From positions 422,034,001 through 422,098,000 of the forward strand of contig JBNRSN020000003.1 in the NCBI GenBank assembly GCA_051313645.2: DNA of 64,000 nt, given 5' to 3'. The translations under genes were made by a program, and so were the position numbers. Of the stretch, positions 5,689 to 60,474 are shown piece after piece. The notes under the pieces are model-generated. The model saw only the letters and a list, made by a program, of their open reading frames with translations, was not told where the DNA came from and made no database searches. This stretch comes from Centroscyllium fabricii. Taxonomy: Eukaryota. Within the stretch, counting starts at the first letter, position 1; each line of letters opens with the position of its first letter.

Positions 5689-6170
5689 TGGTACCATTTC
5701 AGATCAGAAACCTTACACAATGGGCTTTGGGGACAGGGGAAGTGGCAGGGGAGGAAGAGACACAGTTTATGGAAATCTAGTTTTGTGGGAAGGAAAGTGA
5801 TAAATGGCACCTCCCCCCCCCCCCCCCCATAAAAAAAAAGTACTTTAACCAGCAGGCACCTACAATAGGACAAGACCTGAAACACAGCACACAGATCCCC
5901 AAACCAAACCCAATTACACAGGGGAAACACATATAATTATAGGTGAAAACAACTAAGTTGTGGCAGGCTTACATGGAATTATGATAGTGCCTAACCTCAA
6001 GAACTTGCTTTGCCCTTTTTACCAACCAGGAGAACCACTGTTTTCACTGCAAGAGTGGTGTAACAAGTCCCCTAGCATTACCCTCCAAGATCAACATTGG
6101 GGTTTGGTGAAGAAAAGAAGGGGTCCTTATGCATGCTGAGGAATAGCATTGAAAACAATCTCTTGGATCC

Positions 6171-6753
6171 TGGTGAAACAGCGATTTACTTGTACTTCTT
6201 GCAATTTAATATACTGTATTCGCTGCTCACGATGCGGCCTCCTCTACATCGGGGAGACCAAACGCAGATTGGGTGACCGTTTTGCAGAACACCTCCGTTC
6301 AGTCCGTAAGGGTGACCCTGAGCTTCCGGTCGCCTGTCACTTTAATTCTCCACTTCACTCCCACTCTGATCTCTCTGTCCTCGGCCTCTTGCACTGTTCC
6401 AGTGAAGCTCAACGTAAACTCGAGGAACAGCACCTCATTTTTCGATTAGGCACTTTACAGCCCTCCGGACTCAATATCGAGTTCAATAATTTCAGGTAAT
6501 AAACCTGCCCCCATTTTTCATGCAGCATGATTTTGCCATTCCCATTTGCTACATTTTCACAGCATGTTCTTTCAATCCTTCCCCCCCTCCAAACTGCACC
6601 CCCCCCCCAACTGTCTCTGCACCTGCTTAATAGCTGTTACATTTCCAGTTTATTCCAGTTCCGATGAAGGGTCCAGAACCCGAAACGTTAACTCAGTTTC
6701 TCTCTACGGATGCTGCCTGGCCTGCTGAGTATTTCCAGCATTTTCTGTTGTTA
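6171..6753 (+). mobile_element. 5'-truncated Penelope-like retroelement: GIY-YIG endonuclease C-terminus plus 3' tail
   Basis: ORF 6149-6499 reads FTCTSCNLIYCIRCSRCGLLYIGETKRRLGDRFAEH...HFN...GLNIEF (GIY-YIG with CxxC, typical of PLEs). Hammerhead-like motif at 6657-6693. 10-bp TSD TCTTGGATCC (6161-6170, 6754-6763). Confidence 0.9.
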
Positions 6754-11305: not shown

Positions 11306-11748
11306 CAGGTTGAGCACCGTTAATCCGGACACCGATAAGCCGCTAACTTCAGTCGTCTGGAACGAATCCGGCTGACTGGTCTGCGCATGCGCGAAATGGC
11401 CGCCGCGCTTGCGGGCCTCTTCCCGACTGCCAGACTGGTCCGCGCATGTGCGAAATGGCCACCATGCTTGGCTGCGCATGCCTGGACCTCCCCAAATGAT
11501 TGATGCTTCGGCAAGCGCATACCATTCAAAATGGCCACCGGCCTTCGCTGCGGCCATTTTGAATGGTCCCGAACCGATTGATGCTTCGGCAAGCGCATGC
11601 GCAGACCATTCAAAATGGCCGCAGCGAAGGCCGGTGGCCATTTTGAATGGTTGGCGCATGCGCTCGCTGAAGCTTCAATCGTTCAGAGTTTTCACTTGTC
11701 CGGCACCGACCTGGTCCCGCCCGTGCCGGAGTAACGGTGTCGGACCTG
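11306..11748. mobile_element. Tc1/mariner (Tigger-like) MITE family A, motif-array subtype
   Basis: TA|CAGGTTGAGCACCGTTAATCCGG...CCGGAGTAACGGTGTCGGACCTG|TA; internal GCGCATGCGC and AAAATGGCC repeats. Confidence 0.85.
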
Positions 11749-12061
11749 TACATGAGAAGCTGGAAAAGTAGTGACCACAGGTGGTATTAGTGCAAATGAA
11801 AAATGAATAGCATTTAGGGTGCATGCAATTAGAAAATGGATTAAAAGGTTCTGTAGGCCAGAAAAACACAGGTGGATACAGATCATCACGTTTGTTGAAG
11901 TACTGCAACATTTAAATGAAAAAGACAAAGCAGACTTATTCAAGTATAAAATATTTCAAAATACTGCGATAAAAGAATGTAACAGGATAGAAAAGAAACA
12001 ACAGAAGTAGGTTGCATTGAAATGGCAAACCCAAGAAACATGCCTCTCTTTAAAAATAGTA

Positions 12062-12462
12062 TAGGTTGAGCACCGTTAATCCAGACACCGTTTGTCCGGC
12101 AACTTCAAACATCCGGCATAAATCTGGCCGATTGGTGCGCGCATGCGCAAAATGGCCGCCGCGCTGGGCTGCGCATGCCCAGGCCTCTCCCCGACCGCCC
12201 TGCGCATGCGCAAAATGGCCACCACACGTGGCTGCACATGCCCGGGCCTCCCCAATTGGTCTGCGCATGCGCAATATGGCCGCCGCGCTTGGCTGCACAT
12301 GCCCGGGCCTTTCGGCGAGCACATGCGCAGACCATTCAAAATTTCACAGCGGACATTTTGAATGGTCTGCGCATGCGCTCGGCGAACTTCAATCATTCTG
12401 ATTTTTCAAAAATTCGGCACGGTCCTGGTCCCGACCGTGCCGAATTAACGGTGCTCAACCTG
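12062..12462. mobile_element. Tc1/mariner MITE family A, motif-array subtype
   Basis: TA|TAGGTTGAGCACCGTTAAT...ATTAACGGTGCTCAACCTG|TA; three ~60-bp internal units. Confidence 0.88.
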
Positions 12463-23165: not shown

Positions 23166-23504
23166 CAGGTTGAGCACCGTTAATCTGGCACCCGATGGTC
23201 CGGCAACTTCAGTGGTTCGGCACGAATCGGAACCGGCAGCCTTCAGTTTGTGGAACAGCCGCCCGGCGGCGCCGCCGGTTCCCGCAAAGGGTGGGCGAGC
23301 GTCAGGTGTTTGGGTTGCTGCTGGACAGTGTTCTAGCCCCGGGCTCTATCCCCGGGCTCCCTCCCGGGGAGTGTTCTACTGTGCGCTCCGGGCCCCGGGG
23401 AGTGTTCTACCGTGTGCTCCCCTCGAACCTTCAGTGGTCTGGAATTTTCAGTAATCCGGCACCAGCCTGCTCCAGAGGGTGCCGGATTAACGGTGCTCAA
23501 CCTG
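23166..23504. mobile_element. Tc1/mariner MITE family A, short subtype
   Basis: TA|CAGGTTGAGCACCGTTAATC...GATTAACGGTGCTCAACCTG|TA; interior shared with 28958 and 60199 (those two in opposite orientation). Confidence 0.9.
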
Positions 23505-26547: not shown

Positions 26548-27582
26548 CAGGTTGAGCACCGTTAATCCGGTAACCGAAAAGCCGGCAACTTCAGTCGTCC
26601 GGCACAAATTGCCCTAACTGCCCTGCGCATGCGCAAAATGGCCGCCACGATCGAGGCTTCGGCGAATGATCTGCGCATGCGCTCGCCGGCACATGCGCAG
26701 ATCATTCGTCGAAGCCTCAATCGCGGTGGCCATTTTGCGCATGCGCAGGGCGACAAGACAGGAGAGGACAGCAGAGCCCAGTCCAGCCTTTGATCAGCCA
26801 GCAGGCCCGGCACATTCACACTCACCGTCCCGATGACTTCAGGAGACGCCGGCCCCATGGAAGGCAGCAGCGACTTGGACTTGGGAGGCTGAGAGCTCCG
26901 GCGCCTCAGAGTCGCTGGGAGACGAGGAGGAGGCCTTCTCCGACCTGTCGGATGAGGAGCAGATGCCCCACATCGGTGTTTAGCGCGTGCCCTCAACCGC
27001 GCTTGAAACGGGGACAAGTCCTGCCTGGCTGGCCTTGATTGCGTGGGGGGGGGGGGGGGGGGGGGGTGGTGGCAGGAGGTTTGTGATTGGTGGAATGACC
27101 CGTCAATCCCGTGGCTGGGGGAGGGGAGGAGCCTTGTGATTGGTGAAGCAGCCGGTCAATCCTGCGGCTAGGGTGATAGGAGGCTTGTGATTGGTGGAGA
27201 GGCCTGTCAATCCCGTGGCTGGGGGGGAACAGGAGGCTTATGATTGGTGAAGCAGCCTGTCAATCCTGTGGCATGATGTGGAGGTGCCGGTGTTGGACTG
27301 GGGTGGACAATTGTAAGAAGTCACACAACACCAGGTTATAGTCCAACAGGTTTATTTGAAAGCTTGGTGATTTCAAATAAAACTGTTGGACTATAACCTG
27401 GTGTTGTGTGAATCCTGTGGCAAGGAGAGGGAGGCGATTTTGTGATTGCAATGTTATGCGCATGCGCGCGGCCATTTTGAATGGCGCGCGCATGCGCACT
27501 GGCCAGCTTCATTCTTCCGTATTTTTCGCTATACCGGCCAGGGCCCAGTCCCGCCCGTGCCGGTATAACGGTGCTCAACCTG
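26548..27582. mobile_element. Tc1/mariner MITE family A, long subtype with nested insertion
   Basis: TA|CAGGTTGAGCACCGTTAAT...TAACGGTGCTCAACCTG|TA; contains NRF1/YY1-like motifs, four GATTGG..GTCAATCC units and the insert at 27274-27410. Confidence 0.88.
27274..27410. mobile_element. Short PLE-derived element (second family) with fold-back end
   Basis: Starts GATGTGGAGGTGCCGGTGTTGGACTGGGG like 35653 and 55082; ~40-bp inverted repeat; 12-bp TSD AATCCTGTGGCA (27262-27273, 27411-27422). Confidence 0.75.
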
Positions 27583-28957: not shown

Positions 28958-29299
28958 CAGGTTGGGCACCATTAATCCAGCACCCTCGGGACCAGACTGG
29001 TGCCGGACCACTGAAAATTCCAAACCACTGAAGGTTCGGGGGGAGCGTGCGGGTAGAACACTCCCCGGGGCCCTGAGCGCGCGGGTAGAACACTCCCCGG
29101 GAGGGAGCTCAGGGATAGAACACTTACAAAACCTAAAAAAGCAGAAACCCAAATGCCAGACGCCTTCAGCGCTCGCTCACCCTTCACGGGAAATGGTGGC
29201 GCCACCGAGCGGCTGCTCCGCAAAATGAAGAGCGCCAGTTTCCAATCGTGCCGGACCACCGAAGCTGCAGACCATCAGGTGCCGGATTTGCTCAACCTG
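28958..29299. mobile_element. Tc1/mariner MITE family A, short subtype
   Basis: TA|CAGGTTGGGCACC...TGCTCAACCTG|TA; reverse-complement similarity to 23166-23504. Confidence 0.85.
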
Positions 29300-54808: not shown

Positions 54809-55788
54809 CAGGTTGAGCACCGTTAATCCGGTAACCGAATAGCCGGCAGCTTCAGTCTGCCGGCACAAATTGCCCCGACTGCACTGCGCATGCGCAAAAT
54901 GGCAGCCGCCATCGTGGCTTCAACGAATGATCTGCGCATGCGCCGAGCGCATGCGCAGATCATTCAAAACAGCTGCGGGTGTTTTGAATGATCTGCGCAT
55001 GCGTCGCCGGAAGGTTAGCGCATGCGCAGATAATTCAATACGGCCGCCGGTTATTTTATCGATAACTGTAATTGAAGCCATGATGTGGAGGTGCTGGTGT
55101 TGGACTGGGATGGACAATTGTAAGAAGCCACACAGCACCAGGCTGTAGTCCAAAAGTCCCACTCGAAATCACGAGCCTTCGGAGCGCCGCTCCCCCATCA
55201 CCTGACGGGGAAGCGGCGCTCCGAAAGCCCGTGACCCCAACTAAAACCGTTGGACCACAGCCTGGCGCCGTGTGACCTCTTACAATTGAAAGCAAAACGG
55301 GATTGGATAAATTGCCCCCCCGCCGACCCGCGCCACCCTCCTTTCCACCCCCCCCCCCCCCCCCCGGACCCGTGCCACAATCCTTTCCCCCCCCCCCCCC
55401 CGACACAATCCTTCCCCCCCCCGACACAATCCTTTCCCCCCCCCCCCCGCCCCCGGACCCGCGCCTTCCTCCTTCCCCCCCCCGAGCCTTCCTCCTCCCC
55501 CACCCCCACCCCCGACCCGCGCCGCGCCACCCTCCTGCCTCCCCCCGCAAGACCGGCCTTTCACTGCTGCCCGACAGCCACAAAAGCCTGAGCCCATCAA
55601 AAAACTTCGCGGCGGCCAATATTGGACGATCTGCGCATGCGCGCGACAGCCAATAACAATGTTGCGCGCATGCGCGCTGCCATTTTGACTGGTGCGCATG
55701 CGCAGTGTCCAAACTCGTTCTCCCGGTTTTTTCCATTTCCCGGCACGGGCCTGGTCCCGCCCGTGCCGGATTAACGGTGCTCAACCTG
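54809..55788. mobile_element. Tc1/mariner MITE family A, long subtype, inserted in CR1
   Basis: TA|CAGGTTGAGCACCGTTAATCCGG...CCGGATTAACGGTGCTCAACCTG|TA perfect 23-bp TIR; contains a PLE-derived hairpin insert and C-rich tracts. Confidence 0.92.
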
Positions 55789-57850: not shown

Positions 57851-58237
57851 TCTCCACCCCGCCCAAACCCATGTGATCACCTGGGAGAGGCGAAAAACCA
57901 GATAAAAAACCCAGTAGCCAATTTGGGAGAAAAAAAATCAGGAAAATTCCTCTCTGACCCATCTAGGCGATCGAAAACTGGTCCAGGAGATCACATGGTC
58001 GATCTGAACCTAGCCTCACGTCCACTTACCTGCCCGCTCACCATAACCCCTAATTCCCTTTACTTCCAGGAAACTGTCTATCTCTGTTTTAAATTTATTC
58101 AATATAGTAGCTTCCACAGTTTTAAAATTCCCAATAGTTACAATCCTTCAAGTTCCTCTTAATTTACAAATACACAAATTACAACTAGATATAAATTTCA
58201 CCAGATAAAATTTAATTAGACTCAAAGATATAAAGTA

Positions 58238-58556
58238 CAGGTACACAACCCTTTATCCGCAAACCTCGGTACCGGGCGGGTGTCGGTTTTCGGATAAATA
58301 CGGTTTTGAGAGTTGGCCCCAGTGCGCATGCGCATTCCCGTGTTTGCGGCCCAGCTCGCAGCCGGGGAACGGTATATCGGCCGTTTGCAGGAGGAGACCG
58401 GCCCTTTGCAGGAGGAGATCGGCCGTTTTTTTCCTCAGCACGGCATCAACAGCACGAGATCTGCTGCAGCTTAAATCATTTTTTTCTTAAATAAATTGAA
58501 GAAAAACTTCGGTTTTTGGAGCTTTTCAGAGTAGCGGATAAGGGATTGTGTACCTG
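58238..58556. mobile_element. Tigger-like MITE family B
   Basis: TA|CAGGTACACAACCCTTTATCCGC...GCGGATAAGGGATTGTGTACCTG|TA. Confidence 0.9.
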
Positions 58557-60198: not shown

Positions 60199-60474
60199 CA
60201 GGTTGAGCACCGTTAATCCGGCACCCTCGGGACCAGGCTGGTGCTGGATTACTGAAAATTCCAGACCACTGAAGGTTCGGGGGGAGCGCGCGGATAGAAC
60301 ACTCCCCGGGGCCCGGAGGTAGAACACTGTCCAGCAGCAACCCAAACGCCAGACGCTCGCCCACCCTTCGCGGGAACCGGCGGCGGCGCCGAGCGGCTGC
60401 TCCACAAACTGAAGGCCGCCGGTTTCGATTCGTGCCGAACCACTGAAGTTGCCGGACCATCGGTGCTCAACCTG
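60199..60474. mobile_element. Tc1/mariner MITE family A, short subtype
   Basis: TA|CAGGTTGAGCACCG...CGGTGCTCAACCTG|TA. Confidence 0.9.

What the first reader, a model, noticed from the sequence alone, without database searches (positions are those of the whole stretch)
11306..12462. MITEs built from tandem NRF1+YY1 composite motifs
Seen: family A MITEs (11306, 12062, 26548, 54809) share a TIR but have different interiors. All are built from TGCGCATGCGCA, often abutting AAAATGGCCGCC; 12062-12462 has three ~60-bp units, and 11521-11651 has palindromic CATTCAAAATGGCC...GGCCATTTTGAATG cassettes. Known: these match NRF1 and YY1 consensus sites typical of CpG-island housekeeping promoters. Inference: non-coding MITEs may mimic CpG-island promoters to stay open or unmethylated in the germline, and may disperse portable promoter or looping modules.
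Basis: partly seen in the sequence, partly recalled or inferred. Interest (0 to 1): 0.7.

Follow-up and report, generated by a model that had tools for sequence, protein, structure and literature searches.

The report
Jumping gene evolving host-factor docking sites
These two short repeats are gene-less copies of a cut-and-paste jumping gene whose ends gained promoter-like motifs step by step and kept them, likely to recruit host proteins that open its DNA for jumping, while the inserted copies lose their CpGs as fast as other repeats do.

Summary
11306-11748 and 12062-12462 are TA-flanked MITEs of a Tigger (pogo) lineage with roughly 250,000 copies in this 7.2-Gb genome. The motifs are real (21 exact GCGCATGCGC in the window, 0.03 expected).

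I found the autonomous partners (2.3-4.3 kb, DD32D transposase, same TIR). Their transposases form a ladder rooted at compact, motif-free elements (AU p=0.999; other roots p<=0.003). Along it the NRF1-like site, then the YY1-like site, arise by point changes in a tandem unit at the 3' end; they then appear at the 5' end and multiply. Among 36 MITEs, motif columns show 3 lineage-level changes in 34 columns against 119 in 97 spacer columns, which points to selection on the transposing lineage rather than on inserted copies.

Likely job: recruiting NRF1/YY1 to open both ends in the germ line. Binding is untested and the motif names are recalled. The scan noted these MITEs before on other DNA of this genome; the notes shown did not mention the ladder.

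The parts
11306..11748 (+). MITE, motif-rich subfamily (consensus 448 bp), TA on both sides
   Evidence: (8671 first-look candidates, 40 scored at 86-89%)
11306..11328 (+). left 23-bp TIR
   Evidence: same TIR on autonomous Tigger copies
11329..11367 (+). subterminal block (CCGG[A/C]A-type repeats, CTTCA); shared with all ladder stages, inferred transposase-binding region
11383..11400 (+). fused NRF1-like + YY1-like site 1
11442..11459 (+). fused site 2 (one CpG decayed)
11522..11567 (.). palindromic cassette 1 (two opposed YY1-like sites); inverted duplicate of cassette 2
11593..11663 (.). NRF1-like site, palindromic cassette 2, NRF1-like site; its right half is the 3'-end unit of the autonomous element
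11726..11748 (-). right TIR, diverged in this subfamily
12062..12462 (+). MITE, motif-rich subfamily (consensus 401 bp), TA on both sides
   Evidence: (6835 candidates, 40 scored at 89-92%)
12062..12084 (+). left TIR
12131..12310 (+). 2.9 tandem 61-bp units, each with a fused NRF1-like + YY1-like site (12139, 12202, 12263) and a weaker second NRF1-like site
12313..12386 (.). fold-back of the 3'-end unit (NRF1-like and YY1-like site on each arm, partly decayed)
12440..12462 (-). right TIR
26548..27582 (+). motif-rich non-autonomous element of a later stage (left end 0.92 to the youngest autonomous stage)
54809..55788 (+). internal-deletion derivative of the youngest autonomous element
   Evidence: ends 1.00 and 0.99
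23166..23504 (+). motif-free MITE derived from the basal, motif-free stage
   Evidence: ends 0.84 and 0.87 to stage S0
28958..29299 (-). motif-free MITE, inverted; one TIR partly deleted, end approximate
60199..60474 (-). motif-free MITE, inverted

Best explanation
The two elements are non-autonomous copies (MITEs) of a Tigger/pogo cut-and-paste transposon whose ends gained NRF1-like and YY1-like motifs stepwise and kept them in the transposing lineage, likely because host NRF1 and YY1 bind them while they are unmethylated and would open the chromatin next to both TIRs for the transposase. SHOWN: TIR and TA flanks; autonomous partners with the same TIR; a rooted ladder from motif-free to motif-rich; first appearance of the motifs at the 3' end, downstream of the gene; near-absence of lineage-level change in motif columns; ordinary CpG decay once a copy has inserted. 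INFERRED: that the motifs are read by NRF1 and YY1 (names recalled; no PWM scan, no binding data); that the benefit is access of the transposase to the ends, with a promoter or enhancer role for the transposase gene as a second benefit in autonomous copies; and that the benefit is short-lived (new or transiently unmethylated copies), since most copies become methylated.
For: Family: 25 of 30, 21 of 30 and 21 of 30 fetched copies have TA on both sides. Autonomous copies of 3.9-4.3 kb carry the same TIR and a 578-616 aa ORF with CENP-B_N, HTH_Tnp_Tc5 and DDE_1 and a DD32D triad. Ladder: 57 of 60 transposase cores, main backbone splits with 87-100% bootstrap and one at 52%. All 10 outgroups are closest to the motif-free stage, e.g. 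a Latimeria jerky homolog at 78.3% versus 73.6%. A root at that stage has AU p=0.999 and six other roots p<=0.003. NRF1-like counts in the first 300 bp: S0 0 of 7 elements, S1 0 of 7, S2 4 of 4, S3 6 of 8, S4 16 of 16 (3-5 sites each). Fused site: 0, 0, 0, 4 of 8, 16 of 16. In the last 300 bp: 0 of 8, 2 of 6, 5 of 5, 9 of 9, 15 of 15. The homologous 3' unit changes base by base into the two motifs in ladder order. Selection test on 36 MITEs, non-CpG changes, internal vs tip: motifs 3 vs 17, spacers 119 vs 127 (Fisher p=0.004; same with a second tree); 2 of 34 motif columns versus 58 of 97 spacer columns have any internal change. The transposase backbone is under purifying selection (pN/pS 0.16-0.45). 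An NRF1 gene is present (five exon hits in order at one locus). Precedent: NRF1 binds and activates unmethylated young retrotransposons in mouse germ cells (PMC12420836, abstract and section 10); a YY1 site CAAGATGGC is kept at the start of mammalian L1 (PMC5381506, passages), and the same 9-mer follows the NRF1-like site in most S4 elements.
Against: No binding, accessibility or methylation data. CpG deamination alone turns a (GC)n run into GCGCATGCGC, and fold-back template switching explains the palindromes, so origin needs no selection. CpG changes inside the NRF1-like site taken alone (0 internal, 15 tip, versus 14 and 69 in spacers) are too few to show selection. The selection set was chosen by having at least two motifs, was aligned across those motifs, and lost 5 of 41 elements with a different left end. 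Tip changes are also lower in motif columns (0.5 versus 1.3 per column). TIR columns, surely functional, do not pass the same test (39 internal vs 38 tip), and subterminal repeats do so only marginally. Motif-free MITEs also reached high copy number (12 of 53 sampled elements; 6720 candidates), so the motifs are not required. The outermost 3' NRF1-like site is damaged in several S3 elements. Tip lengths of the basal stage (~0.021) are not longer than mid-ladder ones (~0.024), and outgroup polarity is weak beyond the S0-S1 step, so the ladder is not clock-like.
Confidence: 0.55

Rival explanations
1. The motifs are only the promoter/enhancer of the transposase gene in autonomous copies; MITEs inherit them and carry them as passengers.
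For: The youngest autonomous copies have 3-5 NRF1-like sites and the fused site about 900 bp upstream of the ATG, plus one more pair about 330 bp upstream. 54809 is a plain deletion derivative. NRF1 and YY1 act at retrotransposon promoters (PMC12420836; PMC5381506).
Against: The motifs appear first at the 3' end, downstream of the gene (S1: 2 of 6 right ends, 0 of 7 left ends). The left ends of the 11306 and 12062 subfamilies match no sampled autonomous copy better than 0.78, yet keep and multiply the fused site.
Confidence: 0.2
2. The motifs are by-products of mutation and DNA structure: CpG deamination of (GC)n runs, template switching and concerted evolution of repeats, or selection on hairpin or Z-prone shape, with no host factor involved.
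For: Strong fold-backs (z -12.9, -10.7). The 12-mer is a perfect purine-pyrimidine-alternating palindrome (sequence). (GC)n intermediates are seen in S1.
Against: The non-palindromic YY1-like site is as invariant as the palindrome (0 and 2 internal changes in two 7-column sites), while adjacent spacers in the same repeated unit vary (10-column spacer windows: minimum 4-5, median 9 internal changes). Homogenisation should spare whole units, not motifs. The only lineage-level change in the left YY1-like column swaps between AAAATGGC and AAGATGGC, both recalled as YY1 forms.
Confidence: 0.13
3. The motifs are extra binding sites for the element's own transposase, which changed specificity along the ladder.
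For: They lie 50-100 bp inside both TIRs. The transposase changed by about 45 non-synonymous differences at the S0-S1 step. JRK, from a related transposase, binds Tigger terminal repeats (PMC13538051, passage).
Against: TIR and CCGGCA-type subterminal repeats persist through all stages and in motif-free MITEs and are the natural candidates. Two unrelated motifs that both match recalled host-factor consensus sites would be a coincidence.
Confidence: 0.05
4. One reading: MITEs mimic CpG-island promoters, stay unmethylated in the germ line and spread working promoters or looping modules.
For: CpG observed/expected is 1.1 in both elements versus 0.52 in the window. CpGs inside NRF1-like sites decay about 27% less than other CpGs (67/836 vs 179/1642, p=0.023; 50/723 vs 208/2149, p=0.024; site permutation p=0.007). 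One of the two motif-rich sets shows copy-to-copy heterogeneity in CpG decay (p=0.011).
Against: Element-wide CpG decay equals that of motif-free MITEs and other repeats, also at the ends of the youngest autonomous copies (0.020 vs 0.020 in coding DNA, 11 copies). The local NRF1 effect is not significant in matched GCGC context (p=0.13-0.24) and may come from how the search picks copies. TEs are hypermethylated in elephant shark (PMC5437953, passages). No host-gene domain was found in 52 of 80 window ORFs scanned.
Confidence: 0.07

Closest known systems
Tigger family of the pogo superfamily (Gao et al. 2020, PMC7386202, passages; PMC9219625, passages and Table 1) and its MITEs
   Same: TA target duplication, 23-bp TIR, one ORF with CENP-B_N + HTH_Tnp_Tc5 + DDE_1, DD32D as in JRK; Chondrichthyes Tiggers of 2094-4525 bp are listed there; nearest database proteins are named jerky or TIGD2-like. 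Likeness of the TIR to human Tigger4/MER46 is recalled, not tested.
   Different: The passages I read describe no host-factor motifs in the ends and no ladder of end replacement. Ends here grew from about 200 bp to about 1 kb (5') and gained motif blocks.
Mammalian LINE-1 ladder evolution with 5'UTR turnover and a kept YY1 site (PMC5381506, passages)
   Same: Ladder-shaped single lineage, repeated remodelling of the regulatory end, retention of a YY1 site.
   Different: L1 is a retrotransposon that must be transcribed and swaps in non-homologous promoters. Here a DNA transposon builds the sites by point changes, at both ends, first at the 3' end, and gene-less copies keep them.
NRF1 activation of unmethylated IAP and L1 in mouse germ cells (PMC12420836, abstract and section 10)
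   Same: A methylation-sensitive host factor licensing young mobile elements that are otherwise methylated.
   Different: Shown for retrotransposon promoters in mouse; the text has no occurrence of 'DNA transposon' or 'YY1'. Here binding is only predicted.
Mariner silencer acting with YY1 and PRC2 (PMC4777549, abstract)
   Same: YY1 sites inside a TA-targeting DNA transposon, near its 3' part.
   Different: That element lies in the ORF and represses. Here the sites are non-coding, paired with NRF1-like sites and amplified in MITEs. A repressive role cannot be excluded.
Xenopus MITEs domesticated as liver enhancers (PMC12676858, search listing and passages)
   Same: Vertebrate MITEs with internal direct or palindromic repeats and regulatory potential.
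   Different: hAT, Harbinger and Kolobok families with host exaptation shown by chromatin data; no such data here.

Membership tests
MITE | short, no coding capacity | tested here: met
   443 and 401 bp; one ORF of each element (of three >=100 aa listed per element) scanned, no Pfam family; no transposase segment in alignment to the autonomous copy
MITE | terminal inverted repeats and target duplication | tested here: met
MITE | high copy number of uniform length | tested here: met
   6835 and 8671 candidates; fetched copies 391-409 and 428-460 bp; whole family 17 paired + 7 single TIRs in 599.8 kb, about 250,000 genome-wide (119,000-429,000)
Tigger (pogo superfamily) | TA target duplication and short TIR (<=40 bp) | tested here: met
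Tigger (pogo superfamily) | autonomous partner with CENP-B_N, HTH_Tnp_Tc5, DDE_1 and a DD29-36D-type triad | tested here: met
   (DD32D)
Tigger (pogo superfamily) | placement in the Tigger/JRK clade rather than pogoR or Passer | tested here: inconclusive
   top named homologs are jerky or TIGD2-like; no tree with pogoR or Passer references was built
Tigger (pogo superfamily) | mobilisation of these MITEs by this transposase | not testable with these tools
   inferred from shared TIR and ends
CpG-island promoter | GC > 55%, CpG o/e > 0.65, > 200 bp | tested here: met
   GC 0.59, o/e 1.1
CpG-island promoter | unmethylated in the germ line (no CpG hypermutability) | tested here: not met
   CpG transitions 5.8-6.3x other G/C transitions
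CpG-island promoter | transcription start and open chromatin | not testable with these tools
   needs CAGE or ATAC data
NRF1 / YY1 binding site | match to the consensus | tested here: inconclusive
   match to recalled consensus strings, far above shuffles; CAAGATGGC is named as YY1 in PMC5381506; no PWM scan was run
NRF1 / YY1 binding site | factor present in the host | tested here: inconclusive
   NRF1 gene found; YY1 not searched
NRF1 / YY1 binding site | binding in vivo | not testable with these tools
   needs ChIP, CUT&Tag or EMSA

The most novel reading that the evidence does not exclude
A vertebrate cut-and-paste transposon evolved NRF1 and YY1 sites from scratch at both ends to make its own TIRs accessible for excision. 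Gene-less MITEs built the fused NRF1-YY1 module first and the coding lineage later took it over. The genome preserves the whole series, base by base, so selection for chromatin access in a DNA transposon can be tested directly by comparing natural stages.
Probability: 0.3. Interest if true: 0.8.

Novelty: new variant of a known kind. Interest (0 to 1): 0.57.

Why it matters
Why transposons carry host transcription-factor sites is an open question: did they come with them, and for whose benefit? This genome holds a rooted series in which a DNA transposon starts without the sites, builds them by point changes and then holds them nearly fixed while neighbouring bases drift. That argues for selection on the element itself, including on copies with no gene to express. 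It also makes one family the main source of NRF1-like sites in the genome (54 of 60 exact 10-mers in a 600-kb sample lie within 450 bp of a family TIR), a large potential sink for NRF1 that the host appears to keep methylated. If the motifs raise access to the ends, natural stage pairs give a ready test.

Tried and rejected
Pfam searches of the genome (DDE_1, HTH_Tnp_Tc5) returned other pogo-type families. Family TIRs in those loci were MITE insertions (L100, L107, L119, L217, L218, L221), not autonomous partners. The partner came from a protein search with a second Tigger family. A nucleotide tree rooted with that distant family put the root at the young end; I rejected it as long-branch attraction after the protein-level outgroup and AU tests. 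Tip lengths did not order the older stages. RNA: no RNA holder listed. Contigs of runs X1 and X2 cover all 30 bins of the stretch but cannot show expression or copy number. Rfam: no match in the window. Pfam on 52 of 80 window ORFs >=100 aa: only GIY-YIG and two RVT_1 fragments, so the host-gene context stays unknown; short exons would be missed. PDB: only the CENP-B DNA-binding domain. The unbiased sample stayed at 600 kb, which leaves the local protection of NRF1-site CpGs open. Literature: ten searches showed no listing on NRF1/YY1 motifs in Tigger or MITE ends. The library lacks most subscription papers and Repbase/Dfam entries, and no supplements were read; the supplement tables of PMC9219625 and PMC7386202 may list this element.

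Full report
OBSERVATION. Both elements are real. 11306-11748 and 12062-12462 begin and end with a 23-bp inverted repeat and are flanked by TA. The window holds seven elements with this TIR: four motif-rich (11306, 12062, 26548, 54809) and three motif-free (23166, 28958, 60199). GCGCATGCGC occurs 21 times against 0.03 expected, 19 of them in the four rich elements. The fused site occurs 8 times against 0.00 expected. The 61-bp array in 12062 and the palindromic cassettes in 11306 are as described. The names NRF1 and YY1 rest on recalled consensus strings, with YY1 = CAAGATGGC also read in PMC5381506; no PWM scan was run.

HOST AND COPY NUMBER. The window lies in a 7.2-Gb genome. I take it to be a cartilaginous fish from recalled LINE/SINE tails and from earlier scan notes; this was not tested. 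Each element has thousands of first-look candidates (6835, 8671 and 6720 for 12062, 11306 and 23166; 40 scored and 30 fetched each). Sixty evenly spaced 10-kb stretches (599.8 kb) held 17 paired elements and 7 single TIRs, about 250,000 copies genome-wide (119,000-429,000). 54 of the 60 exact 10-mers in that sample lie within 450 bp of a family TIR.

METHYLATION TEST. With the query copy removed, shared non-CpG variants collapsed and CpG columns over 35% variable skipped, CpG transitions exceed other G/C transitions 6.3x (4.8-8.3) in the 12062 set, 5.8x (4.5-7.4) in the 11306 set and 5.9x (4.4-8.0) in the motif-free 23166 set, 29 copies each. The controls give 4.8x (2.8-8.2) for a SINE-like repeat and 7.7x and 6.8x for two Tigger coding regions. 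Normalised to all non-CpG changes, the MITEs (4.2, 3.6, 4.1) lie below the coding regions (6.7, 5.7) and above the SINE-like repeat (2.5), again with no rich-versus-free difference. These are the best-scoring copies, so any unmethylated subset should be enriched among them. CpGs inside NRF1-like sites decay about 27% less than other CpGs (p about 0.02 in each set; site permutation p=0.007), but not significantly so in matched GCGC context (p=0.13-0.24). Non-CpG changes in these sites are lower in one set only (p=0.011 and 0.51). I conclude that copies are methylated in the germ line like other repeats, and that local protection is possible but unproven.

AUTONOMOUS PARTNER. A protein search with another Tigger family found loci with the same TIR about 1.4 kb upstream of the catalytic region. 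Full copies are 3.9-4.3 kb, TA-flanked, about 99% alike in coding DNA, with a 578-616 aa ORF. The protein has CENP-B_N, HTH_Tnp_Tc5 and DDE_1 domains and a DD32D triad, and its named homologs are jerky or TIGD2-like. Both ends carry the motif blocks. 54809 is a deletion derivative (98.6% over 507 bp). A compact relative, with a 200-bp leader and about 2.3-2.4 kb where uninterrupted, has the same TIR and no motifs; the motif-free MITEs match it best.

THE LADDER. Of 60 loci fetched, 57 cores longer than 900 bp were used (L335, L337 and L345 dropped). With CpG-prone columns masked they form a ladder from the compact group (S0) to the youngest group (S4, tips 0.001-0.010); the main backbone splits have 87-100% bootstrap and one has 52%. 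Ten outgroups are all most similar to S0. The closest, a Latimeria protein, sides with S0 at 17 versus 5 sites of the first step, but only 9 versus 8 and 7 versus 4 at the next two. With stage consensuses (L310 and L311 left out of S0) and six outgroups, the S0 root has AU p=0.999 and six other roots p<=0.003. Motif counts rise along the ladder at both ends, at the right end first. The homologous 3' unit, absent from most S0 copies, appears as a motif-free tandem repeat, becomes GC-alternating, then NRF1-like, then gains the YY1-like site. NRF1-like sites reach the left end in S2, and the fused site appears there in S3. The right ends of the 11306 and 12062 subfamilies match S2 best (0.83, 0.85), a stage whose 4 sampled left ends lack the fused site, while their left ends match no stage above 0.78. 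This suggests, on thin sampling, that the fused site arose in MITEs or in an unsampled side branch before the coding lineage had it.

SELECTION ON THE MOTIFS. From flanks, random stretches and the window I collected 53 further elements: 41 with at least two NRF1-like sites and 12 with none, the latter all with S0/S1-type ends. For 36 of the 41 (five with a different left end dropped) I counted non-CpG changes on internal branches, which passed through transposition, and on tips. Motif columns: 3 internal and 17 tip in 34 columns. Spacers: 119 and 127 in 97 columns (p=0.004; a second tree gives the same). TIRs: 39 and 38 in 46. Subterminal repeats: 14 and 23 in 39. Only 2 of 34 motif columns against 58 of 97 spacer columns ever change internally. 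Caveats: the set was selected on motif presence, tips contain unsampled lineage change, the ends may recombine, and the TIRs do not pass the ratio test. Even so, the motifs are the most constant part of the ends.

MECHANISM. Shown: stepwise gain, lineage-level constancy, decay after insertion. Together these point to a benefit at the moment of transposition, not after it. Because the sites appear first downstream of the gene, sit 50-100 bp inside both TIRs and are multiplied in gene-less copies, I favour recruitment of NRF1 and YY1 to open the ends for the transposase (inferred, 0.55) over a pure promoter role (0.2), structural or mutational by-products (0.13), transposase binding (0.05) and lasting CpG-island mimicry (0.07). 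NRF1 is encoded in the genome. Its methylation-sensitive binding to young retrotransposons in mouse germ cells (PMC12420836, abstract and section 10) fits a short window of action.

COMPARISON. The elements are members of the MITE class and very likely of Tigger (PMC7386202 and PMC9219625, passages). They fail the CpG-island test of germ-line hypomethylation. The lineage behaves like the mammalian L1 ladder with regulatory-end turnover (PMC5381506, passages) but is a DNA transposon. Ten paper searches showed nothing on such motifs in Tigger or MITE ends; repeat databases and supplements were not seen. Earlier scan notes on this genome called these MITEs ordinary decaying insertions with promoter-like ends and reported capture of gene starts by Tigger-type MITEs; the lines shown did not mention the autonomous ladder.

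UNEXPLAINED. The backbone changes much faster than inserted copies: summed synonymous difference S0 to S4 is about 0.36, while S0 tips are about 0.02. Error-prone copying at each jump, repeated re-invasion from another host, or top-hit bias could cause this; re-invasion would mean part of the motif gain happened in another genome.

VERDICT. Observation confirmed; interpretation partly supported. A known kind of element with an unusual, well-preserved history of regulatory gain. Interest 0.57.

Noticed in passing
L291-L350 (Tigger ladder): The transposase backbone accumulates about 0.36 synonymous differences from S0 to S4 while inserted S0 copies are only about 0.02 from their neighbours: more than tenfold faster than a host clock.
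   Followed up: partly
window 21107-~21600 and 58237-58556: A second Tigger MITE family (TIR starting CAGGTACACAA; partner family L261-L277) also carries NRF1-like sites near one end. Only 1 of the 10 autonomous right ends recovered (L268) has one: a possible independent gain.
   Followed up: partly
window 43976; L198:9961; L204:1249: NRF1-like 10-mers in what looks like a third, unrelated repeat.
   Followed up: no
L291 element positions 271-480; window 55080-55290 and 27270-27410: The youngest autonomous element and its derivatives carry a palindromic fragment of a common repeat (recalled as Penelope-like) inside the 5' end; a GIY-YIG fragment lies at window 6140-6496.
   Followed up: no
L310, L311, L215, L216 on contig C800; L214 on C823: Near-intact copies of the basal stage (six at 98-100% protein identity, five on C800) and of a second Tigger family; L215 lies beside a C2H2 zinc-finger ORF. 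Possible segmental duplication or domestication in a zinc-finger cluster.
   Followed up: no
L217:2024-3526: Intact 500-aa pogo-type ORF with no TIR pair found: candidate domesticated TIGD-like gene.
   Followed up: no
contig C967 (L211, L212 and further hits): Eight hits with a 558-aa open frame of another Tigger family on one contig; L211 has a retroelement-type integrase ORF beside it.
   Followed up: no
L100:2349-2050 and L107:1332-1480: In two copies of another Tigger family a left MITE end is joined to the transposase at nearly the same point, just before the catalytic domain.
   Followed up: no
L010: Two MITE copies head to tail with no TA between them.
   Followed up: no
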